The notes: a model not told the origin generated them from the sequence alone. A stretch of 64,000 nt of DNA from Prorocentrum cordatum (GCA_963575745.1 CAUYUJ010000193.1:1-64000), one strand, 5' to 3'; positions 6,761-61,700 are shown, counted from the stretch's first letter. Numbers and translations are program-made.

Positions 6761-7199
6761 GGGGCTTTCGCCTCTTTTCTCCAGGAGTTTTCTTCTGTGG
6801 CCGGGGGGGGGGGAGCGGGGAGGACGAACGACGAGCGAACGAACGAGCGACGACGAAAATACAGAGGTCCGAGCTCCAGAACACAGCTGTGCTCTAGACA
6901 CCAAAAAAGGTCAGGGGACGGTTTTCGAGCATTCTTGGAGTAATTTTGTATAATATTTTTGGAGTATTTTTGATTTTTCGCTCCGAAATCCGCCTGTAGG
7001 GGGACATGCCCGACCGGCCTCGGAAGAAAGTAGCGAGCACTCATCCAAATCCGTCTGTCAATGCCCCCCAGTGATCAATGTTTGCGGTGGGTTGGATGAG
7101 TTGCACTTCGACCGCAGTCTTCCCCGGCGCGTGCCATCTTTGAGTTTTGCGGGGCGGGGCCTGCTCAGGCCTGCCTGGGAGCCCCCCTGTCAGGAGAGC

Positions 7200-7336
7200 C
7201 TCCTTCCCCTCCCCCTCCCCCTCCCCCTCCTCCTCCCTCCTCCTCCCTCCTCCTCCTCCTCCTCCTCCTCCTCCTCCTTCTCCTCCTCCTCCTCCCCCTC
7301 CTCCTCCTCCTCCTCCTCCCCCTCCTCCTCCTCCTC
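7200..7336. repeat. (CCT)n polypyrimidine tract, 5' flank of the LINE
   Basis: Pure C/T tract abutting the SL copy. Confidence 0.95.
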
Positions 7337-7373
7337 TCCGTAGCCATTTTGGCTCAAGCCATTTTGGCTCAAG
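7337..7373 (+). other. Genomic DinoSL (TCCGTAGCCATTTTGGCTCAAG, 7337-7358) plus tandem 15-nt SL relic (CCATTTTGGCTCAAG, 7359-7373)
   Basis: Exact match to the known dinoflagellate spliced leader DCCGTAGCCATTTTGGCTCAAG. The relic starts right after the internal AG of the SL, the usual form of SL relics. Confidence 0.97.
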
Positions 7374-7528
7374 AGCTATGCACACTGGGGGCTCCGCGCC
7401 TCCGTGCCAAAACGGGATCGCTCTGTTTCCCGAGCGTGGCAAGGCTCGCTTGCGGCCTGGCAGTCTTTCTTCACTGCAGTCACGGCCTCCCTGCACAGAG
7501 GCCCGTGGCCCAGAGTCCCGCGCGCGCC

Positions 7529-8578
7529 ATGGCTCCTCGTCGGGTTGCTGCTGATGAACCTTGGATATGCAAGTCGTGTGTCCACTCAGTCACTGGCAAG
7601 CCGTGGTTCAATGCGGGAGGGACGTTGTACTGCAAGCAGTGTCAACTCCACAAGTCGGTGGTGTTCAAAGAGTACAAGCGAGGCAAAACCCCCAGCGTCC
7701 ATGCTGCGGGAGCCAAGGGCCCTAGCTCAGTCGACAAAGGCCTCGCGGCTCGTTGTGCACAGCTCGAAGAACAAATCAAGCGGCTCACCTCGGAGAAGGC
7801 CGAGCCCACGCCACCGCCACCATGGGCGCAATCACAGCCTGACGGTGCGGAAGACAAGCGCAAGCGCATCAAGGAACTGGACGGCATCATCCGCGTGCTC
7901 TCGCCTGATAAGGACGCGACGGTGCTGGCCACTTTCAAGAAGGAGAAGGAGACCTTGGAGCGGGAGTTGTTCGACGGGCGCCCGATCGAGGACCAAGCTC
8001 GGTCGTTGGCGGCCAAGCTCCAGCATGCGAGGTCCCAGGAGTCCAGCGTGCGCAAGTCGGTCGAAGAGCAGAGGGCCAAGATCCAGGAGCTGCAGGGGCA
8101 CTTGGACAAGGCTGAGGCAAAGCTCGTGGAGGCTTCCGCCGAGGTGGTCAGGCTCGAAGAGGAGACGCGCAAGGCCATGTCCCAGGCGCGCCCGCCCGAG
8201 CAGCAGCGGCCGCCCACGCTCCATGAGATGCTGCCTGGGTTCGCCGTGTCGGTGGAGCAGCTGGGGCGCGTCGCCAGCACTCTGGGCTTGGGGCCTGATC
8301 TTACTGCTGGGCTGCAAGCGATGGCGGAGACGGTCACCAAGTTGCAGCAGGCGCCGCAGGCAAAGCCACCTCCGCCTCAGACTGCAGAACCACCTGCACA
8401 AGAGCCTGATCAAGCCGAACCTCCCGACATTGAGATGGAAGAGGCAGACATGCGGGCGACGCTCAACGCGGCAGGAATCCCCACGGACGAAAGTGTCTCT
8501 GCCGAGGCGGTCACGGAAAGGTTCAAGCGGTTCCAGACGACGTACATCGAGGCGTGCAAGCGGGCTCGCAAACAATAG
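7529..8578 (+). CDS. LINE ORF1 protein: N-terminal RanBP2-like Zn finger plus long coiled coil
   Basis: ATG at 7529 (GCCATGG). WICKSC...N-x6-CKQC motif, then heptad-like E/K/Q/L-rich region. Lies upstream of ORF2; TAG at 8576-8578. Confidence 0.8.
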   Translation: MAPRRVAADEPWICKSCVHSVTGKPWFNAGGTLYCKQCQLHKSVVFKEYKRGKTPSVHAAGAKGPSSVDKGLAARCAQLEEQIKRLTSEKAEPTPPPPWAQSQPDGAEDKRKRIKELDGIIRVLSPDKDATVLATFKKEKETLERELFDGRPIEDQARSLAAKLQHARSQESSVRKSVEEQRAKIQELQGHLDKAEAKLVEASAEVVRLEEETRKAMSQARPPEQQRPPTLHEMLPGFAVSVEQLGRVASTLGLGPDLTAGLQAMAETVTKLQQAPQAKPPPPQTAEPPAQEPDQAEPPDIEMEEADMRATLNAAGIPTDESVSAEAVTERFKRFQTTYIEACKRARKQ

Positions 8579-9261
8579 CTTCGTCAGCTTTGGGCTTGGT
8601 ATCTTACTCAGTTCAGCGGCAATGACGGCAAGCAATGACGGGTCCCTTCGAAGCGGGGTATCAGCTTCATCTGCGACTTCTCCGAGGACTACGACGTCGG
8701 CGGCGTGTGCTACACCGTGGGCAAGCGCCTCTGGGGAAGATTCTGATGTTATTGGCACGCGTTGGCTACCCTCAGGGAGGCTCAATCGGCTTGCCGAGCA
8801 GAGGCCTGGGGCGGAACCCCGTGCACCGTGCACGTCACAGAGTGCGGCGTCTTCCGCGGCATCGGTAAGTGTCTCTTGGGATGAGAATGCTATTGGCACG
8901 AGTTGGCTACCCTCAGCACCGCTCACTCGGCTTGCCGAGTAGAGCGCTGAGGTGGAACCCCGTGCATCGCGTACCTCGCAGAGTGCGGCTTCTGCTTCAC
9001 AGATGGGGTGTGCTTCTTCGGCGTTCTCGGCTCCAGGAGGTGCGCATTGCTCACCGTCCGTCGTCGGCGGGCAAGCAGCATTGAGGACAACTGAGGGCGG
9101 AGAGTACCGACCGTGGGAGGCCCCTGGCCCCCACGGCACGCACCACTCACCCTCTTCGCCTCGCTGCGAGCCTGCTGCGACATTGGGCGGCAGAGGGTGC
9201 CGACCTACTGGAGCCATGGTGGGATCAAACATGGACGGGGAGTGCGACCCGTTCGAGTTTC

Positions 9262-12200
9262 TTGATGCCGATAGGGAAGCCGACGACCTTGTTCCCACTA
9301 TTTGCCCGAACCCCTTCGGAAATACGTAAGTCAGAACGCGATGAAGCTGCAGGCGCAGCTTCGTCATTTCCCTCTGCCCCCGCTGATGAACATTTGGATC
9401 TCGGGCACGGTGGCGTGAGCGTCGGGTCTGATATATCTAAGACGGGTGAGTTGGAGGGCAAATCTTCTCCACCTGCCATCGCAGGCACAATCATGTCGGT
9501 GAATGCGAGCTCGTTCGGCCCGCTGTTCGACTTTCTGGCCGTGGTGAAGGCCAAGATCATTTGCGCGCAGGAGACGAGGATCGTGGAGTCACGCCTCGGG
9601 GAGTTCCAGCACCGCGCCAAGGACCTCGGCTTCCACGGCATGTGGGCACCAGCCTTGGCGACCAACGCCAAGGGCCCGCAGGCCAACCACTGTGGGGTTG
9701 CAATCCTGGTGCCCACGAATGTGATGATCACGAAGCCTCCAGACGGCGACCCCATTATTTATCCAGGCAGAGTGGTGGCCAGCTTTGTCAATTGGGGAGT
9801 CCCTGGTGGAGTGATTGTGGTCAGTGCATACTTGGTGACAAGCACCGGTCTGACCGGTGAGAATCTTTCCATACTGTGGGCCATCGCTCAGAGAGTCGCT
9901 TTCTGGAATGCTGCGGGCTTTGACTGGATCTTAGCTGGTGACTGGAATTCTGATATAGCAGCTCTGAATGCGAGGGGGTGGATTGAGTCTCTGGCTGGGT
10001 TTCCTTACACTCCACCGTCGGCCACGTGCTGCAAGGAGGACGGCAACTCGAAGATTGACTACTTCATTGCGTGTGCAAATTTGTCGTCACGGCTCGGGAC
10101 AGCAGTGGTGGTGGACACGTACGGCACCATACCCCCTCCGCACTACCCAGTAAGCATTGATCTCCTGGGCAGCGATAGGCCAGCATGGTGTCTTGTGCCA
10201 GACGAGCCGAGGGCATTCCCAGTTACTCCTCCATGTGGGTGCGCGAGGTTCCCGTACCCGTGGGATGTTGTTGATCATATTTTCTTGGAAGTGAAGGAGG
10301 TTTCAGATCTTGCCCGAGTTTGGGACACTGTGCTTGATGGTGTCGATTTTGAGCTGGCTGGGCGCTATGACAAGGTTGACAACGATGCGATTTCTTTCGT
10401 CGGGCGTTCGGGCCCTCCACGTTTCAAGTGGAAGCTGTTGGCTTGGGAACCTCCGCGCCGTCGTACTTATCGCGAGCCAAAGGTCTATGCGTGGGCGACG
10501 GTCAAAAGATGGTGTCAGCATCTCAGGTCGGAGCGTGATCGACTGGGCAGGTTCTGTCAACGGTTACAGTTGGCTTCGGTGGTCTGCCAGCTTACGCCCC
10601 TGCAGTACACCAAGGTGCTGCAGGCTTTCTACGAGGTGGACCAGTACTGCCGTAGGATCGTCCGCGACAAGAAGACCTGCCACCACTTGGACCAGGACAC
10701 CGTCGACTTTCTGCTGCGAGGCTTGGGCATGATCGGCGACGCCGACTTCGACTCAGGTTTGGACAACATCATTCTGAAGGCCGACGCGGTGTTGAAGGCA
10801 GCGAGGTCGGACTCGGAGCAGGCCTGGCGAGGCTGGGCCAAGCAGGCGTTCCTGGGAGGGGCCAGTCAGGCCCACGCTGCCTCCAAGGTGCGCGGCAAGC
10901 AGGAGCAGCTCAACTTTGACGTGGACGCCCAGCCGTACCTGCTGGCAAACCACACCCTCGACGTGTGGGAGGGCGTCTGGCGACGCCATGACTTGTCGCC
11001 CCCAGAGCTGCCGCCAGGCCATGAGAGCTGGCCTGCTCTGCCCGGGCTCGACCACCACCAAGTGCGGGCTGCCATTCGCAAGTTTTCGACGCGTGCGGCA
11101 GCTGGGCCGAGCCATATTTCACCTAGATGCCTGGACGCTCTGTCGGACCAGGCGCTCGAGCGCATCGCCAAGATGTTTTTGCTTTTCGAGCAGTAGCTGT
11201 CCTGGCCTCCTGAGCGGGTCTACAGTGAAATGGTTCGCTTACCTAAACCAGATGGGGACACACGCTTGATTGTGTTATCTCATGCGCTGGTTCGCATTTG
11301 GGGCAAGCTCAGGAGACCAGTCTCGGCAGCGTGGCAGGCTGGCTACCAGTGCGACCAGATGTGGGGCACGAGAGCGGGCCACACGTCCACAGATTCGGCT
11401 TTCGATCATAATATTCAGCAGGAGGTGGCGGAGTTGTTGGGGGAACATACATGTACAATCTTATTAGATATGAGCAAATGTTATGATATGGTTGACCCAC
11501 ATGCGCTGCTCCGAGAAGGCCAGGCTCTTGGGTTTCCACTGCGTCTTCTTTGGCTCCTCATTCAGAGCTACCAGCAGCCCCGTCGAATAAGGGCCTTTGG
11601 GAGCGTTTCTCGAGCTTTTCGGTCCTTCCAGGGGATCCTGGCAGGGTGTACCCACGCCACATATGTCCTGTACCTGCTCACCTATAGGTCGGTGCAGAGG
11701 GTCTCGAAGGTCTCCCCCACGGTGACCCCGAGGACGCTCATGGACGATGTAGGGCTCGAGCGTACCTCCCAGGACCCCAAGGAGGCCAAGTACCTTGCGC
11801 TTGCAGCGAAGGGTTTCATCCAGGACTCCAAGGGCCTCGGCATGATCTTGAAGGCGTCGAAATCTGGGGCTGTTGCTGGTTCTCGGAAGTTCTGGAAGGG
11901 GGTGCAGCACCACATGGGCTCCATGAAGATCCCGTACAAGGGCCACATGAGGAACCTAGGTCACGAGCTCACGGGGCCCAAGGTTGTTCGGGGTATGGAA
12001 AAGAAGCGCCTCGAACAGCTTAGAGAGAGGAAGGCGAGGTTTTCCATGCTGAAGTCTGCGGTCGGCAAGGTCTCGACGGCTTTGTGGCGCACAGGCGCCC
12101 TTCCATCAGTGGCGCACGGTGCGGCAGTTGCTGGCGTAAGCGACGTTGCACTTCGAGAGCTGCGCCTTTTCGCGGCCGTCTTGAACGGCGCGCCAGGCAG

Positions 12201-14265
12201 ATTTAACACGGGTGTGGCCGCCTACTTGATCAGCCACAAGAGCGAATTCTACGATCCTATCTACCACGCCACAATAGCCATAGTAATTAAATTTGCGGAG
12301 TGGGTCTGGGACGGTAGAATACCCGACGGTCGTCTACATCGGGCTTGGGAGGCTCTTCGAGATAAGATCGGCACGCTGTCCTGGGCTAACACTCGGGGCC
12401 CGATCGGGGCCTGCTGGTTGACGTTACGACGCATTGGTTGGAACTTAGTATCTAGTCATATGGTGGCTGATGATCTAGGCATTGTTTTCGACTTGCGTGT
12501 TATGTGCCCTGCCGACCTGAAGGTTTTCCCCACCCAGGGGATCCAGCGTTGGCAGGACGAGCGGCTGCTCAAGCATTTTTATACAGCTGAGCCTGACGAG
12601 CAGATATGGCACCGAGGCTTACGCAACTCGGTGACGAGTATCAAGTGTGTTCGTGGACTTGGGGCCCTCCAAGCGCACTGGTCAGGGGACCTCCCCATAC
12701 CTCAGCTCCAAGATGCCCGTCAAAAGATCCCAATCAGGCCGTGTGCAGCTTGTGGGGCCCAGTCTCAGGGTATTTGGGGCCACGTGCTTTACGATTGCCC
12801 CGAGCTGCTCACGCAGCGCCAGGACTTCTTGGACATCTCAGAGTACTTGGAGGCAACCAGAGGCATGCTCTTGAAGGGGGGCGAGTGGTATGAGGGGCGT
12901 CTGGCTTGGGAGTCCAACTACCTGGTCTTTGGGGCCCCCGCTCCTCCTGCGGGTATCCCTGGGCTCGACACAATAAATTCGGAAGTTCTCCTGTGGGGCG
13001 ACACCGATGGGCCTTGGGGCCCCAAGAGCTATACCGACGGTTCGGGCTTCGCCTCCAGTGTTCCAGAGACTAGGCGGTGCGGGTACTCATGCATCCAGCT
13101 GGACCCCAAGACCCTGCTGCCAGTCCGTGCAGTCAACGGACCGCTGCCCTTCTTTGTGCAGACCGTTGGCCGTGCTGAGAGATATGCTATCAAAATGGGT
13201 GTGGAATTTCATCCTGATCATGAGCTGTTCGTGTCTGACCTCCTGGGGCTGGTTACTGAGGGCAAGTCTTGGGATCAATCCCTTCAGCGCGGCCGAGGCA
13301 AGCACGCCAGGATATGGCGCGAAATTTTTCAGGTTGCTCGGCGTCGAGTGCTCGCGTACCCAATCCGTTTCGAGTGGACTCCTGCACACCGTGACCCCGA
13401 CAGTGTGCTGGATAATCCTGATGAGTTGGAGAACTGGCTCGGCAATGCCTGGGCTGATTACTTCGCCAAGGCAGGTGCGGCGCACCACGTGATCGCCAAC
13501 GCGATCTCGGAGTCGCTCACAGAGGCTTTGAAAATCCATAAGGCCACGCTGCAGTTTGTGTCGTGGGCATGTATACGCGTCATTGTCTCGGAGAGTTGGG
13601 GCCGAGGTCCTCCGCCGCCCGTTCAGGATCCAGAGGCTCGTGAGGTTCTGGGTCAGCCAGTGTTGTTCGGCCGTGATTCAGATCATGATCTATGGTGGTG
13701 CAGGAGACTCAAGGAGCATAGGTGCAGGAGATGTGGGAGATCGGCTCGCTCGGACTCGACTTTAGCTTGGCTTAGGACAGGTTCGGGAAGGAAATGTGAG
13801 CCCTCTAGCCTCCAGAGCCTGGCCTGTGCGGAATGGTTTAAGAATTCGGGGGAGGTCTGGGTCAAAGCGTCGGACCCCCGTATTGCCCCGTCCCAAGTGC
13901 TCGTCGCGGACTTTTTGGGTGAGGGGCCTCGCGAGGCCTCGGAGGGACCCCTTCCTGGGCCCGTGGACCCTCCCCAGCAGCCTGAGAGCGGCGAGGCTTC
14001 AAACAGTTCAGGGTCGACCGAGCTCATAGCCGAGTTTGCGGCTCTGGGTCACGATGTCTTCTGTGTGAATTCGGTCTACTGTTGCCGTACGTGTGCTGGC
14101 ACGACGACCCTCGAGACGTCTCGGAGCGTTCGGAAGCTCCGTCGTCCTTGTGCTGGGCTCTCAGAGAATCCGAGCACGAGGGCCAACCAGCTGGGGTTGA
14201 TCGATAGGATCTTCCACGGCCGCCAAGGGCGCTCCAAGCGCCCCGAGGGCAAAGCGCAGACGTAA
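9262..14265 (+). pseudogene. LINE ORF2 (APE endonuclease - RT - CCHC - RNase H - Cys/His motifs) with one in-frame TAG at 11194-11196
   Basis: APE: IMSVN, AQETR, GVAILV, SAY, AGDWN, KIDYF, PPHYPV (~9487-10160). RT: LPKPDGDTRLI, LLDMSKCYD (11461), GILAGC, LMDD (11737-11748). C-x2-C-x9-H-x4-C at 12742-12798. RNase H: YTDGS (13030), QTVGRAE, VSD, WTPAH, GNAWADYFAK (13441). ORFs 9262-11196 and 11230-14265 are in the same frame. Confidence 0.93.
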
Positions 14266-14429
14266 CTCGTCTTGCCTCCCCTGGGAGCGGTTTCGCGGCG
14301 TCGGTTTTCCCTGGCCCTCGCCCGCCCTCTCAGTACATAATATTTCCGCCGCTTCGCGGCCCCTCAGGGTTCTCATTTGTTCCTGAGGCGTGTTCGACTC
14401 GGACGCGCTCTCAGCGGCCCTCACCCTCA

Positions 14430-14650
14430 CCTCCTCCTCCTCCTCCTCCTCCTCCTGCTCCTCCTCCTCCTGCTCCTCCTCCTCCCCCTCCTCTCCTCCT
14501 CCTCCTCCTCCTTCAAAAAAACTCCTCCTCTCCTCCTCACCCCTCACCTCCTCCTCCTCCTCCCCCCCATCCTCCTCTCCCCTCACTCCTCCTCCTCGCG
14601 CCTCCTCCTCCTCCTCCTCCTCCTCCCTCCTCCTCCTCCTCCTCCTCCTC
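14430..14650. repeat. (CCT)n tract, 3' tail or flank of the LINE
   Basis: Directly follows the 3' UTR, on the same strand as the 5' flank tract. Confidence 0.95.
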
Positions 14651-15161
14651 ATTGTTTCCCTCTACCGTAGGAGAGTCAGCTACGAGAGCTGATCCGCGGA
14701 CCCCCCTCCCCTTGCCATCCCCCCAATACCGTCGGACCGGAGCTGCTCTTCTTGGCATCGCTCGGACTTGCGCATTTTGTTGTGGCGAGGACTACTGTAG
14801 ACTCGCTCGCGCTCAGAGTCACCCGCGCTCAGTCCCTCGTGCTCATTTCAATCGTCTTCGTTCGTGTGGTGTATCCTGCCGCACATGTCGGCACACCCTT
14901 CAGACGTTCGTGGCCCCACAGGGAACGCCGCCGAAGAATCTATCAAGAGTTGCGGTCATGTGGTTGGGTCTTTCGCCAGGCTCGTTTTTTGGCGAGGACC
15001 ATCGAGGACCCTCTCGGGCAATCCTGCGAGAAAAGGCGCGCGGGAAGCCGAGAGATGCACGGGGAGCCTTGCCGCGAAGGTGGCGGCTCACGGGTCCTCG
15101 GCGCTTTCTTGGCCGCCTTCGGCCCCCCGGGCCCCATGCCAGCTCCTTTTCCCCCAAATTG

Positions 15162-15497
15162 GGGGGCCACATGCGAACCCTACCCCTACCCCCCACGATT
15201 TCTGAGGGGGAGGGTGGGGTTCACTTCGTTCGGGAGCTCCCCAGCGAAGTGAACCCCACCTCCTCCTCCTCCTCCTCCTCCTCCTCTCCCTCCTCCTCCT
15301 CCTGCCCTCCTCCTCCTCACCCCTCCTCCTCCTCCTCCCCCTCCTCCTCCTCCTCCTCCTCCTTCTCCTCCTCCTCCTCCTCCTCCTCCTCCCATCCTCC
15401 TCCTCCTCCTCTCCTCCTCCTCCTCCTCCTCCTCCTCCTCCTCCTCCTCCCCCTCCGAAATCGTGGGGGGTAGGGGCAGGGCTCGCAGGTGGCCCCC
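15162..15497. mobile_element. Palindromic MITE family B copy, right arm interrupted by ~190 bp of (CCT)n
   Basis: gggggccacatgcgaaccctaccc...gggagctcccc...gcaggtggccccc; homologous to 42797-42946. Confidence 0.85.
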
Positions 15498-29241: not shown

Positions 29242-30165
29242 CAACTTGCAAGCTTGAGGCCGCTCCGGTCTTGCCTGCCCGTTCTGCTGCCCCTGCTTCC
29301 GTGCGACGCCGCTTCCCAGGACGGGATCCGGTCGTGCTCGCTCGGCGTGGGCCTCTGGGCCTTGCTTCGCCCCGCGCGGCGAAGGACCGCCGGAGCGGGC
29401 CGTGTCATCGGAGCCCCTAGTCACCGAGCGCGTTCCACGACTCGCGAAGTGCCCAGTCGCAAGCGTCAGGAGAAAGATACGTCTTTTCCCTGATCAGAGT
29501 GCATCGCAGATCCCCCCACTTGCGAGTGGTGACTTCGCGAGCAGTGGAACGCGCTTGTCCACTTGGAGCCCTCCTCCTCCTCCTCCTCCTCCTCCTCCTC
29601 CTCCTCCTCCTCCTCCTCCTCCTCCACTTGGAGACTTCGAGGATTTTGCAGGAACCGACCTCTGAGTGCTCCTCGAGCGCCTCGCGGAGCCGCCCCCCTG
29701 CCTCCCCCCCCCCTCCCTGCCCCCGCCCCTGCCCCTCCCTCCGCTCTCTCTTCCTCCTCCTCCTCCTCCCCCCTTCCCCCCTTCCCCTGTTCCTCTTCCC
29801 GACCTCCTCCCCACCTCGCTTTCTCCTCGCATTCTCACCCCTGAATGCTCCCTCCTCCCTCGCCCTTCCTCCCTCTTCCTCTCTCCCTGGCCTCTCCCCC
29901 CCCCCCTGCCTGCTCCCCCCCTTCCCCCCCCCCCCCCTCCCTCCCTCTGACATCCTGCACCCCGAAACGCCGAGGCTGCACGACGAGGCAGAATTCGATG
30001 GGGAGACTCCTGGCCGCTCGGCCGAGCTGGCCGCCTTGCTGGAGGCCTCCGAGCCGCGTCGTCGTCGTCAACGTCGTTGTTCGCGGCGTTGTCGACGTTG
30101 GCGTCGTCGTCGTCGTCGTCGCCGTCGTCTTCGCCGTGGTCTTCGTCCTCGCCGGTATCGTCGTA

Positions 30166-30233: not shown

Positions 30234-30834
30234 GTTGTTCGAGGTATTGGTTATGATGGTGGTCGCCTGTCGTCCTCGTCCCTCTCCTTCTCCTCCCCTG
30301 TCCGCCTCCTCTGGCCCTTGCCGCTGCGGTCCACGCGGTGACGGAATGCACAGGCCGCGCCATTTGGCGCGGGGTCAGTGCCAGGATGGTGCGGCAGGCG
30401 GCTTCCCCCCCCCACCCCCGGGCCGGCAGTGGTGTGGCAACGCAGGGCTCGAGCTGAACGGTGTGTTGGCGATCTCGTAGGCCGTTTTCGTTCTGATTTC
30501 GTTTTGCAGCACGGAGGAACGCGAAGACAGCATGGACACGAAAAGCACTGTTTAGCTCGAGCCCTACAGTGATGTGGCAAAGGGCTCCCCCCGAGGGCCC
30601 CTCCCGACGGCCAGCACCCCAGGCACCCCAACGTCATGCTGTGTCTTGCGACGTGTGCCCCTGGAGGCTTAGTCTACTTCCTGGGGCCCGTTTCTCATCC
30701 CGGGTCGCCTGTGGCCGTCCAGGGCCAGGTCGTTGCCCCCGGAGGCCGAAAGAGAACCAAAGTTCGCCCGCCGTTTTTGTCCCAACCACCCTGTGGGATT
30801 GGGTCCTCGTTTTGAGGAGACAGCGCCCCGCGAG

Positions 30835-38169: not shown

Positions 38170-39946
38170 TGGCCGACGAACGGGATGGTGACCACCGTGT
38201 GGCGAGTCAGTGGGGATTCGGGATTGCCGCACGGTCTTTCGGGACGGCCGACATGGGCACGGAAAGAATGGGTACAGAGACCGAGAGCAGTTCTTGTTCA
38301 TTTTGGACAGGATTCGCCGTCGGCGTCGCCACGGATTGTGTCCATTTGAGACAGAAGGCCGCCTGCAAAACAGCGGCTGCTGTTGGTTCGGGACAACATT
38401 TGCTGTTGGGCATTCTGCCCACTGTTTTGCCCATTTCGGCGTCCAAAGTTTTGGGGCTCGGGTCGTTCTCCGACGACGCCTCAGGCGACTGGGGCATCAG
38501 AGGTCCCAAGACCGTGCGTTGACGGACCGTGCGGTGAGGTCTTGGGGGACTTCGAGGTCACCGCACGGCCTGTCACCGCACCGTTCAGGGACTCGAAGAT
38601 CCCCAGGCTCGGCGGCGAAGTCCGAACCCAGTGGTCGGGGAAACGTAAGCCTCGAGTGCGCCAGAACTCGGGCCTGCCGACGCTCTGCGACGAGCGAGTC
38701 CCGGATCTCGGCCCTCCCGTTCTCGTGGGATGCCTGCAGAGGGAGCTCGCGTCACATCTCAGACTGGGTCCGGTCATCTCCATGATGGCCCGGTAACTCG
38801 ACCACAAGAGACCTTCCACAAGACACCCTACCCTGGAACCCCAGGACGCACATCGATGTTCGGGAAGTATGGGAACGGCACGTGCTCCATAGCAACACCA
38901 TCGAAACCCGAGAGACCCAGGGCACCTGGGAGGCAGGCAGGTGCCAACCCGAGCCCCCCGAGCCCGAGTCTGACGTCTCCCCGGATGGCCTCCGAGCTTT
39001 GATGGGCTCGGAGGAGTGCGCCGCGTCGCCGGCGCGTCGCCGGTGCGGTTTCGCTGCGGAGCCCCCGAGGTTCTCTCCGCGCCGGCGTCGCCGATGCACC
39101 GCCCATCATCGGCGGGGTGCCCCAGGTGCGCTCCCCAGGCTCGGCGGCAGAGTCCGAACCTCCTCCTCCTCCTCCTCCTCCTCCTCCTCCTCCTCCTCCT
39201 CCTCCTCCTCCTCCCTCCTCCTCCTCCTCCTCCTCCTCCTCCTCCTCCTCCTCCTCCTCCTCCTCCTCCTCCTCCTCCTCCTCCTCCCTCCTCCTCCTCC
39301 TCCTCCTCCTCCTCCTCCTCCTCCTCCCTCCTCCTCCTCCTCCTCCTCCTCCTTCCTCCTCCTCCTCCTCCTCCTCCTCCTCCTCCTCCTCCTCCTCCTC
39401 CTCCTCCTCCTCCTCCAGGCTCGGCGGCAGAAGCCGAGCCCTGCCCTCGTGGATCAGCGATGCAGGCAGCTCGGATGGGCGGCCCGGGCAGGGTTGGGAG
39501 TTCGTCGCACACGCTGCGAGGTCCGAGTCCTACCCCCGCCTGGTTTGGTTGGTGGGGGTAGTCGATTCAGGAAAGTCGAGAGTCGATGGTTGGAGAGTCA
39601 GGAGAGTCGATGGTTGGAGAGAGTCAGGAGAGTCGATCAGGAGCGTCCACCCCTGCCCCCATCGATTCAGGAGAGTCGATGGCTGGTTTCGGAGAGCCCA
39701 CCCCTGCCCCCATCGATTCAGGAGGGTCGATGGTTGGTGGGGACAGGGTTCGATGTCGCCACCTGGGGGTCCGCTGTCTCAGATCCCCTCGCGGCGCGAA
39801 AAGATCACGGCGGCTAGCTTTTCGCCATTTTCGGCCCCTGGGGGTCCCTGCTGGGCCTCGGGGCCGTCAGCAGCACGATCGAGGATGAGAAGCCGGCCCT
39901 GGGGGAACGGTTCCAGACCTCCTTTTGGGTTCAAAGTTGCAGTGCC

Positions 39947-42796: not shown

Positions 42797-42946
42797 GGGG
42801 GCCACCTGCGAACCCTGCCCCTGCCCCCCACGATTTCTCAGGGGGAGGGTGGGGCTCACTTCGTTCGGGAGCTCCCGAACGAAGTGAACCCCACCCTCCC
42901 CCTCAGAAATCGTGAGGGGTAGGGGTAGGGTTCGCATGTGGCCCCC
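42797..42946. mobile_element. Palindromic MITE family B, intact 150-bp copy flanked by TA; third copy at 52796-53033
   Basis: TA|gggggccacctgcgaacc...gggag^ctccc...ggttcgcatgtggccccc|TA; symmetric about 42871/42872. Confidence 0.9.
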
Positions 42947-43792: not shown

Positions 43793-45317
43793 CCAAAAGA
43801 TGTCAAATGGCATCAGGGCTGCGACGACGTCCTCTTGGAGTTGGCCAGTGCGGCTCTGTTTTGGCCTCGCGTTTTCTTTCCCTCGGGCTTTGCGCGATAG
43901 TCAGATCATAATCACTGTGCCTCTGGGCTCTTCCTCCCTCCTCTCCACTTTCTTTCCCCTCTCCTTCTCGTCCTAATCCTCTGCCGGCGGCAGCTGTGAT
44001 GCGGCTCAGAAGCGTTAGCTCTGGTTTGTCAGTCGCTTGCGACACACGCTTCTTGAAGAGTGCAGGAGAAAGGGGTGCGGCTTGGACGCAGTAATGTTGG
44101 CCTGTCATGCGTGCGAAGCGCGCTTCATGAACTATGATTCCTCCTTGATGTCCTTGCCCTTCTAATTGCCCCCGTTCCTCGCCCTTTCCTGGCCCCTCTT
44201 CATTGTTTCCCAACCATCCTGTGGTGTTGGGTCCTCGTTTTGAAGCGAGGGTCCCCGCGACTGCGCCTCCTCCTCTCCTCTCCTCCTCCTCCTCCTCCTC
44301 CTCCTCCTCCTCCTCCTCCTCCTCCTCCTCCTCCTCCTCCTCCTCCTCCCTCCTCCCTCCTCCCTCCTCCCCTCCTCCCGTGACCCCCCTCACTTTGGCA
44401 CACCCCTCACACGTTTCGTTGTCCCATAGGGAGCTTCATCGAAGGCCCAAATGCCAGCGCTCGCATGCGCCTGCGGCACCCATTTTTGTAACCCCTCATA
44501 CGTTTCGTGGCTTCATGAGGAGCTCCACCGAAGGCCCAGATGCCAGCGTTCGCATGCGCCCACTTCGCCCATTGGGGCACAGGCCTCACACGTTTCGTGG
44601 CCCCATGAACCACTGAAGGTCCAGATGCCAGCGTTCGCATGCGGCCACCGCACCAATTTTGGCACGTCTCTCACACGGTGCGTGGCCCTATGTGAGCTCC
44701 ACTGAAGGCACACATGCCACCGCTCGCATGCGCCCACCTCGCCCATTTTGGCACACCCCTCACATGTTTCGTGGCCCCATACATAGGGAGCTCCACCGAC
44801 GGCCCAAATTCCAGCGCTCGCACGCGCCCACCGTACTAATTTTGGCATGCGCCTCACACGTTTCGTGGCCCCATGAAAAGCTCAACCGAATGCGGTGCAT
44901 ACAACGACGGTACCAACAACTGCATCTAGTTTCATTTAGACAAGACCAGAGCCCAGTCAGCTTTGTTTAGCTTTCTTTTTTGTTGCCCTGCAGGCTGTTT
45001 GCAGGCTGCCCGTGTGATTTTTTGCAACAAGCGCGACGCCCTCTCAGGTGGCTGGTCGTGCCCAAACATGTTGCCAGCACGGGGCTGGTCATGCCGACGC
45101 ATCGTGCCGCCTGAAGAACCTTAAGCGAGGGCTCTCGTGTGCCCTTCTCCCGCGTGGGGTCACAACGGCAAAGGACGATCAGGGGAAGCGTCAACAGCGT
45201 GGGGCGCAGTGTGCAGCCTCGAGGAGGGCAGTCGAGGGAAATGATGGGAGCGCCTGCGCCCAGAAGGGGGCCAAAACACGCCGAAGGGGGACAAACAGAG
45301 CACAGGCTTCCTCTCAG

Positions 45318-47430: not shown

Positions 47431-47503
<73 letters not shown>

Positions 47504-47530
47504 GGATGAGGATGAGGATGAGGATGACGA

Positions 47531-47562
<32 letters not shown>

Positions 47563-47566
47563 ATGG

Positions 47567-47618
<52 letters not shown>

Positions 47619-47625
47619 GATGGTG

Positions 47626-47657
<32 letters not shown>

Positions 47658-47966
47658 GATGACGATGGTGATGATGATGATGAGGATGAGGATGATGAGG
47701 CTGATGCTGCTGATGATCATAACGACGATGACGATGATGATGATGCTGGTGACGCTGCTGATTATGCTGATGATGATGAAGATGCTGATAGTGATGATAA
47801 TGCTGCTGCTGCTGATGCTGCTGCAAATGATGATGATGATGCTGGTGATGATGATGCTGCTGGTGATGATGCTGGTGGTGATGATGATAATGATGATGCT
47901 GATGATGATGACGATGATGCTGGTGATGACTGTACTGCTCCTGATGATGATGATGATGATGATGAT

Positions 47967-47997
<31 letters not shown>

Positions 47998-48255
47998 ATG
48001 ATCATGCTGGTGATGATGATGCTGATGGTAATGATGATGCTGGTGGTGATGCTGCTGCTGCTGATGATGATAAGGCTGATGCTGATGCTGATGCTGATGA
48101 TGATGACGATGAGGATAAGGATGAGGATACTGCTGGTGATGCTGCTGCTGCTGATGCTGATGATGATGATGATGGTGATTCTGACGATGATGATGATGCT
48201 GATGATGATGCTGGTGATGATGCTGCTGCTGATGATGATGATAACTATGATAATA

Positions 48256-48303
<48 letters not shown>

Positions 48304-48548
48304 CTGATGATGCTGATGATGATGATGTTGATGATGCTGACCATGCTTTTGATGATTGGGATGATGCTGCCGATGATGACGACGAAGACGATGATGATGA
48401 TGCTGGTGATGATGATGACGACGTTGACGATCATGATGATGATGATGTTGATGATGATGATGAGGATGATGAGGATGATGATGATGATGATGATGATGCT
48501 ATTGATGATGATGATGATGCTGGTGATGATGATCATGCTGATGATGGC

Positions 48549-48588
<40 letters not shown>

Positions 48589-49053
48589 GTGGTGTTGATG
48601 CTGCTGCTGATGATGCTGCTGATGCTGATGATGATGATGATGCAACTGATGATGACGATGATGATGATGATGATGATGACGATGATGATTATGATGATGA
48701 TGCTGGTGATGCTGCTGCTGATGATGATACTGATGATGATGACGATAGCGATGATGATGGTGATCATTATTAGGATGCTGCTGATGATGTTGATGGTGAT
48801 GATTCAGACGACGATGATGCTTGTGATGCTGATGCTGCTGATGATGATGATGATGCTGATGATGATGATGACGATCATTCTGATGATGATGGTGCTGATG
48901 ATGATGATCATGATGATGGTGATGACGATTCTGATGACGCTGATGACGATGATGAGGATGATGCTGATGCTGGTGAAGATGATGCTGCTGCTGATGATGA
49001 TGATGCTGATGATAATGCTGACAATGATGATACTAATGATGATGATGATGATT

Positions 49054-58723: not shown

Positions 58724-61700
58724 TAGTTTGTGAGGGTGATCCCGGCGAGGCGCTGGCTTCAGCACTCCCAGGAGGGAGCCGCCAGGGTGGGGACACTCCA
58801 GGTGTCGCGCCCACACTGTGGGACTGCCTCGGGCGGTTTGCCGTTCTGGGTGCTCCACATCCTTGGTTCTCGAAGCAGATTGGGAGGAGGTCTGCGGCGA
58901 GGCGCTGGTTTTTGTATTGCTGATGGGGGAGCCGCCAGGGGTGGGATCACTCCAGGATTCGTACCCAGATCATGGGGGCGTCTCAGGTGGTTTGGAGCCC
59001 CCAAGCCTTTATGGGGCCACAACGTGTGAGGGCTGTGCCGAAATGGTGACAGGAAACGTGTGAGGGGTGTGCCAAAATCGGGCGGCGCCGCCATGCGGAC
59101 TGCGCCACTGGGACCTCAGGTGGAGCTCCCTGTGGGGCCGCGAAACGTGTGAGGGCTGTGCACAGATAGGGCGGCTAATGGGAGTACGTTCGAGGCCGGC
59201 GAGGAGGAGGAGGAGGAGGAGGAGGAGGAGGAGGAGGAGGAGGAGGAGGAGGAGGAGGAGGAGGAGGAGGAGGAGGAGGAGGAGGAGGAGGAGGAGGACG
59301 TTCGAGGCCGGCAAGAGGTGCGGGGCAGCGCCGCGGGCGCGGGGCGGCGCCCGCCCGCGAGGACGCGGCTGACGCGGAAGCAGGGCGAGCCGCCGGGCGG
59401 CCCGCCGGAGGGCGCGGGGCGGCGGTCGCCCGGGCCGGGGGCAGGGCGTGGGTCGGGCGTGCCCCTCCACAGGAAGGGGGTACTCCAGGTTTCGTAATAA
59501 GAGGGAGGGGGTCTCGACCCTCCCCGACGAGAAGTTTTAGACCCCCCCCCGTGGGAGAACCCTCCAAAACATCGTCCCCAGACCCCCCCAGGCCCTCCAA
59601 GATAGCCTGGAAGAGACCCCCCCCGAGATGAGACCCCCCTCCCTTTATTACGAAATCTGGAGTATCCAAGAATAGGTTGCGAAGTAGTCCAGGGAGGGTT
59701 TCTGGACTATCTCTTGGACTATTTTGTGGCATGTTTTCGGGTATTTTTCATGCTTCCTCCAGAATCCGCCTGTGGGAGGACATGCCCGGCCCAAGGCAAG
59801 TCTCAGATGAGTTTGGTAGCAAGTCATGGGGGCCTGGTGTGCCCTCTTAATTCGGTCTTCAGCGTCGGCTAGCGTCGATTCGCGTCTGGGAATCGATGAG
59901 ATGACGCCGATTTAGCGTCGGCTAGCGTCGATTAGCGTCGATTTAGCTCCGATTTAGCGTCGACTAGCGTCGATTCGGAAGAGCCGACTAGATGGTATGG
60001 GAGGCTCCCATGAGTTGCCACCGCAGAGGATGTCGCTGCCTTTGCCTCGTTTTCTCCTTTGGTGGGCATCCTGGGCGGCCCGGGCATCCTGGGCGGCCCG
60101 CGTCGCCACCGCTGGATTCGCCTCGGAATTCTGGTCAGAACGCACTCCAGGAGATGTCCAGGGAGTAGAGGTATAGGTACCTTTGGTTCCCCCCAAATCG
60201 CCAGCAGGCCTCGACCTCAGCGGTGTTCTGGCGATTTCGTGGGCCGTGTGCGTTTTGGCTTCGTTTTGACGCCAGGGCGGAGCAGGACATACGGAGGGAA
60301 GAGGAGGACACATCGAAAACGAACCACTTTTTTTAGGCCGAGTCCTGCTTGCTAGGCCGCCCAAGTGGGGTCCGAGCAGATGGAGTCGGCTGATCGCGCC
60401 GCATCGCCGAGGCATCGGCGTTGCGGCTCGACGTGGTGCCCGATTTTCCTCGCCCCGACGACGTCGCCGGTGCATCGCCGATGCATCGCCGATGCATCGG
60501 TGATGCATCAGGGATGTGGTGCGATCCTCCGACCCCATCAAATCTAGAGGAACAACAAAATCGTCGTAAACAGAAACTTTCGGCGCTCCGCGAGGATTTC
60601 TTGAATCTGCGCTGGGCCGCACGTTGAGCGCGCCTGGGGCGGCGCCGGAGGCGCCGCAAGGGGGACCCAGCGCAGATCCAAGAAATCCGCGCGGAGCGCC
60701 GAAAGGTTATGTTTATGCCGTTATTTCTTCTTCGATACTCGGGTCTCATCGCAAAATTACTCACTGCCTGGAGCTCCCCATATGTGCATCTATTAGCACG
60801 GACCTGTCCGCCGTGAGTGACTAGGCGCAAGAGCTTTCGAATAGAAGCGGGCTTGAGTATTGACGGTCTGGCAGTGAATCTGACTGTGAATGAGTTGGAG
60901 TGTGAATGAGTCTCAGTAGTATTAGTGCGTCTCTGCGCATGGGGCCTCTTGAAGCCTCCTGGGGCTTCCTGGGGTCTCCTGGAGCCTCCTGGGGCCTCCT
61001 GTGGCCTCTTGTGGCTTCCTGTGGCATCCTGAGGACTCCTGGGGCCTCGCGTGGCCTCCTGGGGCCTCCAGGAGCCTCCTGGATCCTCCCGGGGCCTCCT
61101 GGGGAGGATTCGTGCCCAGGAGAGGCCCAATCTATAGGAACAGACGTAAAACACTTCGGATTGAAGCCACAGGAGAGGGGCAATCTATAGGAACACGCGT
61201 AAAACACCAAGGGTTCGCGCCCCAGGGGAGACCCAATCTATAGGAACCTATGTAAAACACTGAGGAGTGGATACGCACTGATACGACTGATACGTAAACA
61301 CAAGGGATTCGCACTCCACAGGAGGCCCAAACTATATAAACATACGTAAAACGCTCGGGATTGCAGCCACTCCTTCGGCCTTCTGAGGTCTCCTGCTCCT
61401 GGGGCCTCGTGGGGGCTCCTGGGGCCTTGCGGGACCTTCTTGTGCCTCCTGGCGTTTCCTGTGGCCTCCTGTGGCCTCCTCTCGGGCCTCCTGGTGCTTC
61501 CTGGTGCTTTTTAGAGCTTCTTGGGGCCTCCTGGAGCCTCCTGTGGCCTCCTGGGGCCTCATGTGACCTCCTGTGGCCTCCTCGTGCCTCCTGGGACCTC
61601 ATGTGGCCTCCCGGGGCCTCCTGAAGCCTGCTGGAGCTTCCTGTGGCCTCCTGAGGATCCACGCCCACGAGTCTGGCCAGCAAAACAAGCAGATCGTCCG

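What the first reader, a model, noticed from the sequence alone, without database searches (positions are those of the whole stretch)
7200..14650. LINE whose 5' end is a trans-spliced leader plus relic, embedded in a (CCT)n tract: candidate SL-recycling retrotransposon
Seen: the element starts at nt 1 of a perfect 22-nt DinoSL followed by a perfect 15-nt relic. It has a ~135-nt pure C/T tract upstream and (CCT)n downstream. Established: DinoSL is added to mRNAs by trans-splicing; genomic SL plus relics mark retroposed mRNAs re-spliced at the SL-internal AG; other LINEs insert into SL RNA genes (CRE/SLACS, NeSL) or microsatellites (Waldo, Kibi, Koshi). Inference: this copy was reverse-transcribed right to the 5' end of an SL-capped RNA, after at least two splice/retroposition cycles. 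Each insertion brings its own AG acceptors (7342-43, 7357-58, 7372-73), and sense insertion behind (CCT)n supplies a polypyrimidine tract. The element could therefore be cut out of host read-through transcripts by trans-splicing, regenerating an exact 5' end without its own promoter. I cannot tell from here whether this family is already described.
Basis: partly seen in the sequence, partly recalled or inferred. Interest (0 to 1): 0.9.

Follow-up and report, generated by a model that had tools for sequence, protein, structure and literature searches.

The report
Spliced-leader-capped LINE with (CCT)n tail
A young, almost intact jumping gene (LINE) in a dinoflagellate genome begins exactly with the spliced-leader tag that these algae add to messenger RNAs and ends in a CCT repeat, so it was copied from a processed RNA, which hints at how such elements, and perhaps the many retro-copied genes of dinoflagellates, spread.

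Summary
A perfect 22-nt DinoSL (7337-7358) and a perfect 15-nt relic (7359-7373) head a 7.1-kb non-LTR retrotransposon. It has ORF1, then ORF2 with an APE endonuclease and a reverse transcriptase, and it lies between a pure C/T tract and a (CCT)n tract. The nearest named proteins are from Prorocentrum cordatum.

This copy is young but dead: a TAG replaces a conserved Leu just before the RT. The family is multi-copy. Several contigs of a DNA run align across the relic/body border, but the tool masked the SL junction itself.

An unrelated LINE in an environmental contig (L076) also starts with SL-derived units and ends in A16. LINE RNAs therefore appear to be trans-spliced and copied to their 5' end.

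(CCT)n is best read as the family's own 3' tail and landing site, because the three purest (CCT)n tracts in the window carry 10-17-nt target-site duplications. Promoter-less "SL recycling" stays an untested inference: no RNA data were available. The polypyrimidine argument is weakened because SL-tagged retro-copies elsewhere abut microsatellites of many motifs (8-11 of 32 loci against under 1% background).

Verdict: a new variant of a known kind. Interest 0.6.

The parts
7199..7336 (+). Upstream pure C/T, (CCT)n-like tract that abuts the first base of the SL
   Evidence: Only C and T in 138 nt. TRF period 3, 45 copies, 85% matches.
7337..7358 (+). Complete 22-nt DinoSL (T + CCGTAGCCATTTTGGCTCAAG); this is the element's 5' end
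   Evidence: 0 mismatches, 0 expected in 100 shuffles. It is the only SL in the 64-kb window.
7359..7373 (+). 15-nt SL relic (the SL minus its first 7 nt, that is, cut after the internal AG)
   Evidence: Perfect copy. TRF sees a 15-nt unit x2.1 at 100%.
7374..7528 (+). 5' UTR; 7436-7480 varies between subfamilies
   Evidence: Loose ends behind 7435 in 9 X1, 3 X2 and 1 X4 contigs, and before 7481 in 1 X1 contig. 1-nt indel variants at 7374-7384.
7529..8578 (+). ORF1, 349 aa: N-terminal CxxC...CxxC finger plus a long coiled-coil-like region
   Evidence: Translation. 98% identical to P0003, which a source names as a P. cordatum protein and UniRef as 'GATA-type domain-containing'. 42-44% identical to P0004 and P0005.
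8746..8993 (+). Internal 107-nt tandem duplication in the ORF1-ORF2 spacer
   Evidence: Self-BLAST 8746-8852 against 8887-8993, 83%.
9493..14265 (+). ORF2 (frame open from 9085; in-frame ATGs at 9265 and 9493), interrupted by one TAG
   Evidence: Homologues P0007, P0010, P0012 and P0013 align continuously across the stop.
9502..10086 (+). APE-type endonuclease domain
   Evidence: Pfam PF03372, E 3.9e-6, 27.2 bits against a cut-off of 24.5, residues 140-334 of the 9085 frame.
11194..11196 (+). TAG nonsense codon just before the RT
   Evidence: Sequence cag TAG ctg. The aligned residue is Leu in 4 of 5 homologues that span it and Gly in the fifth.
11242..11877 (+). Reverse transcriptase domain (LMDDVG at 11737-11754)
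   Evidence: Pfam PF00078, E 4.5e-7, 30.2 bits against a cut-off of 29.6. Motif located.
12742..12798 (+). CCHC-like knuckle after the RT (Cx2Cx10Hx4C)
   Evidence: Read from the translation. C516, C519, H529 and C534 of the RT half are invariant or nearly so in alignment A1. No Pfam hit.
13030..13470 (+). Possible RNase H-like domain (TDGSG ... AERYA ... SD ... AHRD ... GNAWAD)
   Evidence: Motif resemblance recalled from knowledge only. Pfam finds nothing even at E<=1 and the AlphaFold model is poor.
14266..14431 (+). 3' UTR ending in CCTCACCCTCACC
   Evidence: Conserved in relatives: contigs of X1-X4 cover 14277-14373.
14432..14514 (+). (CCT)n run directly after the 3' UTR; read as the element's own 3' tail
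   Evidence: The tail reading rests on the TSD-flanked (CCT)n-only insertions listed below.
14515..14521 (+). A7 inside the repeat tract; possibly a poly(A) remnant, unexplained
14522..14650 (+). Further (CCT)n with a second copy of the 3'-terminal motif (CCTCACCCCTCACC at 14535-14548); either the old target tract or a nested, extremely truncated copy
   Evidence: CTCACCTCCTCC occurs 4 times in the window against 0.02 expected.
39136..39439 (+). (CCT)~86 insertion flanked by a 17-nt perfect direct repeat CCAGGCTCGGCGGCAGA (21 of 23 when extended)
29558..29635 (+). (CCT)~18, 100% pure, flanked by (T)CCACTTGGAG on both sides
59184..59313 (-). (CCT)~32 on the minus strand, 100% pure, flanked by a 15-nt perfect direct repeat (ACGTTCGAGGCCGGC as read on the + strand)

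Best explanation
This is a young, full-length copy of an APE-endonuclease/reverse-transcriptase LINE family of a Prorocentrum cordatum-like dinoflagellate. One nonsense mutation has killed this copy. Its template RNA had been processed like any dinoflagellate mRNA: the 22-nt DinoSL was trans-spliced onto it, and reverse transcription ran to the very 5' end, so the new DNA copy begins with the SL (shown by the sequence). The relic shows that an ancestor copy which already began with an SL was transcribed from upstream, trans-spliced at the SL-internal AG and copied again (standard inference). The family ends in a (CCT)n tail. A (CCU)n RNA tail would pair with (AGG)-like DNA at the nick, so the family lands in C/T-rich patches, preferentially in existing (CCT)n, in sense orientation, and leaves tail-only (CCT)n insertions with 10-23-nt target-site duplications elsewhere (inferred from the window). 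Because each copy carries AG acceptors in its SL and relic, a transcript entering from outside can be trans-spliced back to a defined, capped 5' end. Use of the AG at 7357-58 would regenerate exactly SL + one relic (inferred, untested). My odds: about 0.85 that it is a retro-copy of an SL-capped LINE RNA, about 0.6 for (CCT)n as tail and target, and about 0.35 that trans-splicing of read-through RNA stands in for a promoter.
For: The exact SL plus relic sit at the 5' end and there is no other SL in the window. LINE anatomy: ORF1, APE and RT, with no terminal repeats in a self-BLAST. The copy is young: ORF1 is intact and ORF2 runs 1726 codons with a single stop, which replaces a Leu conserved in 4 of 5 homologues. 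The family is multi-copy. In X1, 497 contig pieces were laid on the element: 84 at >=99% identity, 165 at 95-99%, 166 at 90-95% and 82 below 90%. All 30 bins were covered, and there were 76, 70 and 29 pieces in three metagenome runs. At 7374-7384, directly after the relic, at least 5 X1 contigs, 2 X2 contigs and 1 X4 contig show 1-nt indel variants. An aligner reports such variants only if the contig also matches to the left, that is, in relic/SL sequence. No multi-contig loose end was listed at the relic/body border. Independent case: L076 encodes Exo_endo_phos_2 plus RVT_1. It starts with AGCCATTTTGGCTCAAG, then a perfect relic, then a decayed relic, and ends in A16 followed by 135 nt of flank. 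Its ORF2 shows no BLASTP similarity to this element. Tail and target: the three purest (CCT)n tracts of the window have abutting, non-repeat direct repeats of 17, 10-11 and 15 nt. Repeats of >=10 nt arose in only 23 of 2000 random flank pairs. No other microsatellite motif among 85 cores showed such a duplication (my reading of the list). Each of these targets starts at a short C/T-rich patch. Passages of Song et al. 2017 (PMC5585692) report 'RNA-dependent DNA replication' enriched among DinoSL-tagged genes, which fits SL-tagged retroelements being common.
Against: There is no RNA evidence of any kind. The 7336/7337 junction and the tail were masked by the read-laying tool, so neither the junction nor other copies' flanks were seen. 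X1 may be the sample from which the window was assembled, so it is not independent support. Only one copy's flanks are known, and a sense C/T tract around one random insertion has a chance of about 4%. No target-site duplication can be defined for this copy. There is only one relic. If every cycle used the SL-internal AG, relics should pile up, so either downstream AGs are used or the leader is now simply inherited. No gene was recognised upstream that could supply read-through. A pyrimidine tract is not an established requirement of dinoflagellate trans-splicing (PMC2488372 passages). The A7 lying 84 nt into the tail and the repeated 3'-terminal motif are not explained by the simple tail model. 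Among 70 SL+relic loci with a testable ORF, only 1 was a LINE.
Confidence: 0.65

Rival explanations
1. The SL and relic are fossils of one or two old events that became a fixed part of the family's 5' UTR. Today the element is transcribed from its own start, either from an internal promoter or from the TTT(T/G) motif inside the SL-derived sequence, as Song et al. 2017 proposed for retrogenes. Trans-splicing of read-through RNA plays no part in its cycle.
For: There is only one relic despite a diverged, multi-copy family. A published hypothesis holds that DinoSL relicts carry the core promoter motif (PMC5585692 abstract and passages). In trypanosomatids, another SL-trans-splicing lineage, LINEs use an internal promoter (Pr77) and give unspliced transcripts (abstracts in the listings).
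Against: A transcript started at or inside the SL-derived DNA could not contain the complete 22-nt SL from base 1, yet the copy has it. L076 shows a gradient from perfect outer units to a decayed inner relic, as expected from repeated addition. Trans-splicing is reported as general for dinoflagellate nuclear mRNAs (passages seen).
Confidence: 0.22
2. The (CCT)n on both sides is coincidence or passive accumulation in repeat-rich, gene-poor DNA. The element has no preference for it, and the (CCT)n after the 3' UTR is only the old microsatellite.
For: C/T tracts cover 5.3% and A/G tracts 1.6% of the window. The window is packed with simple repeats (155 TRF rows listed). No Pfam family was found in the 14 other long ORFs of the window that were scanned. 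The Grandi & An 2013 review notes passive accumulation for Drosophila Waldo-A/B (PMC3812793 passage).
Against: The repeat starts exactly at the end of the 3' UTR and stops exactly at base 1 of the SL. TSD-flanked (CCT)n-only insertions show that (CCT)n is being inserted by a LINE-like process in this genome. The 3'-terminal motif recurs inside the downstream tract.
Confidence: 0.12
3. The SL and relic belong to an older retro-copied host gene, and the LINE, whose true 5' end would be 7374, inserted into that gene's 5' UTR.
Against: No remainder of a host gene follows the LINE's 3' end, only (CCT)n. Several family contigs in three runs align across 7374 into the relic.
Confidence: 0.04
4. It is an SLACS/CRE/NeSL-type insertion into an SL RNA gene, or an assembly chimera with cDNA.
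Against: The SL is followed by a relic, not by an SL-RNA intron. No SL array or other SL lies in the window and there is no Rfam hit in 6800-15000. The endonuclease is APE-type. The SL is embedded 7.3 kb inside a 64-kb stretch with ordinary flanks, and DNA-run contigs cover the leader/body border.
Confidence: 0.02

Closest known systems
DinoSL-tagged retro-copies ('retrogenes') of dinoflagellates (Slamovits & Keeling 2008, recalled and cited in the papers read; Song et al. 2017, PMC5585692, abstract and passages)
   Same: A genomic DinoSL lies at the 5' end, followed by a relic truncated at the SL-internal AG. This is read as repeated rounds of trans-splicing and retroposition. Song et al. found reverse-transcription genes enriched among SL-tagged genes and proposed that the SL relict helps the copy to be expressed.
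   Different: Here the retro-copied RNA is that of the retroelement itself: an autonomous-type LINE with ORF1, APE and RT. The SL marks the element's own replication cycle, not an off-target copy of a host mRNA. The papers read treat RT genes as one more retrogene class and call the copying enzyme unknown, favouring Ty1/copia (PMC6050394 passage). No clear poly(A) lies at the 3' end; a (CCT)n tail is there instead.
Microsatellite-specific APE-type LINEs: Waldo (ACAY)n, Mino (AC)n, Kibi (TC)n, Koshi (TTC)n, Dong (TAA)n (Kojima & Fujiwara 2003/2004 as summarised in Grandi & An 2013, PMC3812793 passage)
   Same: An APE-type LINE lies inside a microsatellite of one motif in fixed orientation, and the repeat continues from its 3' end.
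   Different: The motif is (CCT)n. Specificity is shown for one full copy only. Tail-only insertions at non-repeat sites with target-site duplications suggest a tail-driven preference rather than strict site specificity. Clade membership was not tested. None of those elements carries a spliced leader.
SL-RNA-gene-specific LINEs
   Same: A LINE whose 5' end is physically joined to spliced-leader sequence and which could profit from the host's SL system for expression.
   Different: Those elements insert into SL RNA genes at a fixed position, use a restriction-like endonuclease and borrow the SL gene's promoter. Here the SL was added to the RNA by trans-splicing, no SL gene is present, and the endonuclease is APE-type.
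L1Tc/ingi LINEs of trypanosomatids with the Pr77 internal promoter (PMC1874656 and PMC8190864, abstracts in search listings only)
   Same: LINEs living in a genome where mRNAs are made by SL trans-splicing of long transcripts.
   Different: Pr77 drives the element's own transcription and gives unspliced transcripts. The element here shows the opposite solution: its RNA was trans-spliced.
SymbioLINE elements of Symbiodiniaceae (de Mendoza et al. 2018, PMC5890265, passages)
   Same: Dinoflagellate LINEs with Exo_endo_phos and RVT_1 (RNase H there too), conserved UTRs, target-site duplications and no poly(A) tail.
   Different: Their ORF1 encodes a DNA methyltransferase, whereas here it is a zinc-finger/coiled-coil protein. 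The passages read mention neither an SL at the 5' end nor a microsatellite tail. Sequence relatedness was not tested.

Membership tests
APE-type non-LTR retrotransposon (LINE) | Apurinic/apyrimidinic-like endonuclease N-terminal to the RT in ORF2 | tested here: met
   PF03372, 27.2 bits (cut-off 24.5), residues 140-334 of the 9085 frame.
APE-type non-LTR retrotransposon (LINE) | Reverse transcriptase domain | tested here: met
   PF00078, 30.2 bits (cut-off 29.6). MDD motif at 11737-11754. Homologues carry PF00078 and PF03372.
APE-type non-LTR retrotransposon (LINE) | No long terminal or inverted repeats | tested here: met
   Self-BLAST of 7337-14430 against the window finds only an internal 107-nt duplication.
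APE-type non-LTR retrotransposon (LINE) | Target-site duplication flanking the copy | tested here: inconclusive
   Both flanks are (CCT)n. No shared word of 8 nt or more lies outside the tracts.
APE-type non-LTR retrotransposon (LINE) | Assignment to a named clade by RT phylogeny | not testable with these tools
   No reference LINE set was on hand. PDB sequence and profile searches gave no hit and the model has pLDDT 50.7.
Microsatellite-specific LINEs (Waldo/Mino/Kibi/Koshi/Dong type) | Most copies inserted in one microsatellite motif in one orientation | tested here: inconclusive
   One copy was seen with both flanks. Flanks of other copies were masked. Tail-only (CCT)n insertions at non-repeat sites argue against strict specificity.
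Microsatellite-specific LINEs (Waldo/Mino/Kibi/Koshi/Dong type) | 3' end continuous with the target repeat | tested here: met
   The 3' UTR ends at 14431 and (CCT)n follows at once.
SL-RNA-gene-specific LINEs (SLACS/CRE/NeSL) | Insertion at a fixed site inside an SL RNA gene | tested here: not met
   A complete SL is followed by a relic, not by an intron. There is no other SL in the window and no Rfam hit.
SL-RNA-gene-specific LINEs (SLACS/CRE/NeSL) | Restriction-enzyme-like endonuclease C-terminal to the RT (recalled) | tested here: not met
   An APE domain lies N-terminal to the RT.
DinoSL-tagged retro-copy | DNA-encoded DinoSL at the 5' end of the copied unit | tested here: met
   22 of 22 at 7337-7358.
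DinoSL-tagged retro-copy | Relic(s) beginning after the SL-internal AG | tested here: met
   CCATTTTGGCTCAAG at 7359-7373.
DinoSL-tagged retro-copy | Poly(A) remnant at the 3' end | tested here: inconclusive
   There is only an A7, 84 nt into the repeat tail. L076 by contrast ends in A16.
SymbioLINE (de Mendoza 2018) | DNMT encoded in ORF1 | tested here: not met
   ORF1 has no DNMT hit in Pfam, only a weak coiled-coil match.
SymbioLINE (de Mendoza 2018) | RNase H domain after the RT | tested here: inconclusive
   Only a motif resemblance at 13030-13470. No Pfam hit at E<=1.

The most novel reading that the evidence does not exclude
Dinoflagellates harbour LINEs with microsatellite tails that have given up promoters. 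Their RNAs are cut out of any passing transcript by SL trans-splicing at acceptors that each copy carries in its own SL-derived leader. These same elements would be the long-sought engine of dinoflagellate gene retroposition and a major source of the genomes' microsatellites. That would explain why SL-tagged retro-copies of ordinary genes so often sit directly behind a simple repeat.
Probability: 0.25. Interest if true: 0.85.

Novelty: new variant of a known kind. Interest (0 to 1): 0.6.

Why it matters
LINEs everywhere face a 5'-end problem: a copy must bring its own promoter or die. In an organism that puts the same capped leader on its mRNAs by trans-splicing, a LINE could dispense with a promoter and still regain an exact, translatable 5' end. 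This element is a concrete, nearly intact candidate for testing that idea.

It also bears on an open question stated in the dinoflagellate literature: which retroelement makes the thousands of SL-tagged retrogenes? Passages of Song et al. 2017 and 2018 call it unknown and favour Ty1/copia. A LINE family that carries the same SL signature as the retrogenes points to LINEs instead. So does the finding that SL-tagged retro-copies in environmental dinoflagellate DNA abut microsatellites far more often than chance.

Finally, TSD-flanked pure (CCT)n tracts suggest that retrotransposition seeds at least this class of microsatellite in a very repeat-rich genome.

Tried and rejected
- Own genome: none is held, so no census of copies was possible.
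- Earlier findings of the scan: nothing relevant.
- RNA evidence: no RNA holder listed among the sequencing runs.
- Read laying: 7300-7347 and 14415-14460 were masked as repeats, so the SL junction, relic-number variants and tails of other copies were not seen.
- Metagenome scan with ORF1: 174 pattern matches, none confirmed.
- Protein search with the translated leader plus ORF1, hoping for gene calls that read through the SL: 3 relatives, all starting at the ATG.
- The same search with the first 128 residues only: 18 candidates, none significant.
- Viral contigs scanned for the SL+relic pattern: 0.
- Prokaryote genome contigs: 2 contaminant contigs, neither a LINE nor abutting a repeat.
- tblastn of this element's proteins and 15 relatives against all 121 loci: no further LINE.
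- PDB sequence and profile searches with ORF2: no hit.
- AlphaFold model of the RT half: mean pLDDT 50.7, too poor for a fold search, so none was run.
- Pfam on the putative RNase H and CCHC parts: nothing.
- Rfam on 6800-15000: nothing.
- TSD search for this copy: nothing beyond 7-mers.
- Pfam on 14 other long ORFs of the window: no family, so no upstream host gene was identified.
- Considered and rejected: SL RNA gene insertion, a LINE inserted into a host retrogene, and a cDNA chimera (see the rival explanations).
- Literature: no paper describing a LINE that begins with a DinoSL, or linking dinoflagellate retrogenes to microsatellites, was found in searches. Supplementary tables of Song 2017 and of the genome papers were not opened and may list such genes.

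Full report
**What is there.**
The sequence at 7337-7358 is TCCGTAGCCATTTTGGCTCAAG, a complete DinoSL. It is followed at 7359-7373 by CCATTTTGGCTCAAG, the SL without its first seven bases. No such match arose in 100 shuffles, and the window holds no other SL. The 138 bases before it (7199-7336) contain only C and T.

Behind the leader come the following parts:
- a 155-nt 5' UTR;
- ORF1 (7529-8578, 349 aa, with a CxxC...CxxC finger and a long helical region);
- a spacer of about 0.9 kb with an internal 107-nt duplication;
- an ORF2 frame open from 9085 to 14265, with Pfam Exo_endo_phos and RVT_1, both just above their gathering scores;
- a conserved CCHC-like knuckle after the RT;
- a stretch with RNase-H-like motifs that Pfam does not confirm;
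- a 3' UTR that ends at 14431, with (CCT)n following at once.

There are no terminal repeats. It is an APE-type LINE of about 7.1 kb plus tail.

**Whose it is and how old.**
ORF1 is 98% identical to a protein that a source names as from Prorocentrum cordatum. ORF2 has relatives at 24-56% identity, one of them also named from that species. The window's G+C content is 60.8%.

ORF2 has one in-frame TAG (11194-11196), just before the RT. In the five homologues that span it, the aligned residue is Leu in four and Gly in one. This copy therefore carries a nonsense mutation and cannot make RT. One lesion in 1726 codons, an intact ORF1 and a perfect leader all mark it as young.

**The family.**
- Contigs of one DNA run (X1, which may be the source of the window) gave 497 pieces on the element: 84 at >=99% identity, 165 at 95-99%, 166 at 90-95% and 82 below 90%. 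All 30 bins were covered.
- Three metagenome runs gave 76, 70 and 29 more-diverged pieces.
- The tool masked 7300-7347 and 14415-14460, so the SL junction and the tails of other copies were not seen.
- Directly behind the relic, at 7374-7384, at least five X1 contigs, two X2 contigs and one X4 contig show 1-nt indel variants. Such variants are reported only if the contig also aligns to the left, that is, in SL-derived sequence.
- No multi-contig loose end was listed at the relic/body border.
- By contrast, 7436-7480 differs between subfamilies: there are loose ends at 7435 in 9, 3 and 1 contigs.

I take this as indirect evidence that the SL-derived leader is shared by family members. No RNA run was listed, so expression is unknown.

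**An independent case.**
I scanned the metagenome contigs for the 23-nt SL/relic+relic junction.
- Of these, 70 loci had at least 600 nt and an ORF of at least 100 aa downstream. Pfam found ordinary host genes in many of them and a LINE in one, L076 (Exo_endo_phos_2 + RVT_1).
- A looser re-scan of 21 long ORFs without a hit and tblastn with all LINE proteins in hand added none.
- L076 starts with AGCCATTTTGGCTCAAG, then a perfect relic, then a decayed relic. It has ORF1 and ORF2 in one frame separated by a stop, and it ends in A16 followed by 135 nt of other sequence.
- Its ORF2 has no BLASTP similarity to the element here.

Two unrelated LINE lineages thus carry SL-derived 5' ends. The gradient of decay in L076 fits repeated addition of leaders.

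**The (CCT)n question.**
C/T tracts cover 5.3% of the window's + strand and A/G tracts 1.6%. One copy in a sense C/T tract is therefore about a 4% event by chance: suggestive, no more.

The window itself gives better evidence. The three purest (CCT)n tracts are each flanked by abutting direct repeats of ordinary sequence:
- 39159-39416: 17 nt, or 21 of 23 when extended;
- 29570-29625: 10-11 nt;
- 59201-59298, on the minus strand: 15 nt.

Repeats of 10 nt or more arose in 23 of 2000 random flank pairs, and those were not constrained to abut the tract. No other microsatellite motif among 85 cores showed such a duplication (by my inspection; all other flagged rows were repeat-within-repeat matches).

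These are insertions of (CCT)n with target-site duplications, as expected from extremely 5'-truncated, tail-only copies of a LINE whose RNA ends in (CCU)n. Each target begins at a short C/T-rich patch.

The element here is the only LINE in the window and ends in exactly such a tail. Its last 13 nt of 3' UTR recur, with one extra C, 115 nt further on inside the tract.

I therefore read (CCT)n as the family's tail and preferred landing site. Sense orientation then follows from tail-target pairing. Not explained are the A7 lying 84 nt into the tail and the lack of a definable duplication for this copy.

**How it most likely works.**
- Shown: the template RNA carried a full SL and was copied to its first base, and an ancestor had already been through one such round.
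- Inferred: a copy is transcribed from outside. The AGs it carries (7342-43, 7357-58, 7372-73) accept a new SL. Use of the second AG regenerates exactly the present structure, use of the first adds a relic, and use of the third removes one. The capped RNA is translated and copied back at a C/T-rich nick.
- The main rival: the leader is now merely inherited and the element starts its own RNA, perhaps from the TTT(T/G) motif that Song et al. 2017 proposed as a portable promoter in SL relicts. A start at or inside the SL-derived DNA could not, however, reproduce the SL from base 1.

**A by-product that changes the context.**
Among the 121 loci:
- 56 had the SL cut by the contig end;
- 31 had no full SL as their first unit;
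- 2 had fewer than 24 nt upstream;
- 32 could be scored.

In 8 of these 32 the 24 nt before the SL are a simple repeat at a periodicity of at least 0.9, and in 11 of 32 at 0.8 or more. The background in the same loci's upstream flanks is 0.44% and 0.72% (binomial p about 1e-12). The motifs include (AT)n, (GT)n, (ATC)n, (ACA)n, (ACAT)n, (GACA)n and (CCACA)n. L025, left out of the count because of an indel in its SL, abuts (CCT)n. Retro-copies of dinoflagellate mRNAs in general therefore tend to sit directly behind microsatellites. This fits insertion by microsatellite-seeking LINEs and does not fit a special role for pyrimidines.

Caveats: the contigs are short, their 3' ends were not seen, and the mix of DNA and RNA assemblies is unknown to me.

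**Comparison with what is known.**
- SL relics as marks of retroposition are textbook for dinoflagellates.
- Song et al. 2017 even found 'RNA-dependent DNA replication' enriched among SL-tagged genes. They read it as a sign of activity and left the copying enzyme open. The 2018 review favours Ty1/copia.
- De Mendoza et al. 2018 describe Symbiodinium LINEs with the same enzymatic domains, target-site duplications and no poly(A), but the passages read mention no SL.
- Microsatellite-specific APE LINEs are known from animals.
- SL-gene-specific LINEs differ in endonuclease and target. The defining features of that group are not met here.
- Trypanosomatid LINEs use an internal promoter and stay unspliced (listings).
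- I found no paper that describes a LINE beginning with a DinoSL or that links retrogenes to microsatellites. Supplements were not opened.

**Verdict.**
The promoter-less recycling idea is plausible but untested. The (CCT)n link is real but is better explained as a tail and target relation. I rate it a new variant of known kinds (SL-tagged retro-copy plus microsatellite-tailed LINE), with interest 0.6.

Noticed in passing
L001, L015, L019, L025, L027, L047, L072, L081, L084, L093, L099, L116 (5' flank of the SL): In environmental dinoflagellate contigs the DNA-encoded DinoSL of retro-copies very often abuts a microsatellite of varied motif: 8 of 32 scorable loci at periodicity >=0.9 and 11 of 32 at >=0.8, against 0.44% and 0.72% background. 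No paper linking retrogenes and microsatellites was found.
   Followed up: partly
window 39136-39439, 29558-29635, 59184-59313: The three purest (CCT)n tracts are flanked by abutting direct repeats of 17, 10-11 and 15 nt. They look like tail-only retro-insertions with target-site duplications.
   Followed up: yes
L076 1-4889 (minus strand): A LINE of about 4.7 kb from an environmental contig, with an SL-derived leader (truncated SL, perfect relic, decayed relic). ORF1 and ORF2 lie in one frame separated by a single stop. It ends in A16 and has flanks on both sides. It is unrelated to the window's LINE by BLASTP.
   Followed up: partly
window 14515-14548: An A7 run lies 84 nt into the (CCT)n tail. 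It is followed by CTCCTCCTCTCCT and a second copy of the element's last 13-14 nt of 3' UTR. This may be a poly(A) remnant plus a nested or template-switched truncated copy.
   Followed up: partly
window 15162-15497, 52796-53035, 42797-42946: A palindromic repeat family of about 100 bp. Two copies have a (CCT)n tract at the centre of the palindrome; the third has none.
   Followed up: no
window 30780-30833 and 44208-44260: Two 83%-alike 54-nt stretches, each followed directly by a (CCT)n tract. They may be 3' ends of another (CCT)n-tailed repeat.
   Followed up: no
window 47431-50102 and 51998-52491: Very long trinucleotide arrays: (ATG)~889 over 2.7 kb and (TGA)165 at 98% purity. TRF listed 155 rows for the window overall.
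   Followed up: no
L017 1409-3091 (-) and L007 1-3918 (-): LINE-like ORFs (Exo_endo_phos in L017; RVT_3/RNase_H with a DnaJ domain in L007) lie on the opposite strand, head-to-head with an SL+relic retro-copy.
   Followed up: no
L120, L121: Contigs filed under bacterial MAG records (Hyphomicrobiales, Flavobacteriaceae) carry DinoSL+relic sequence, so they are probably dinoflagellate contamination of the bins.
   Followed up: no
window 8560-9085 against P0003: The 98%-identical ORF1 relative P0003 has a different, longer C-terminus (412 aa) that matches translations of the spacer further downstream. That other copy therefore differs by a deletion or frameshift in the ORF1-ORF2 spacer.
   Followed up: no
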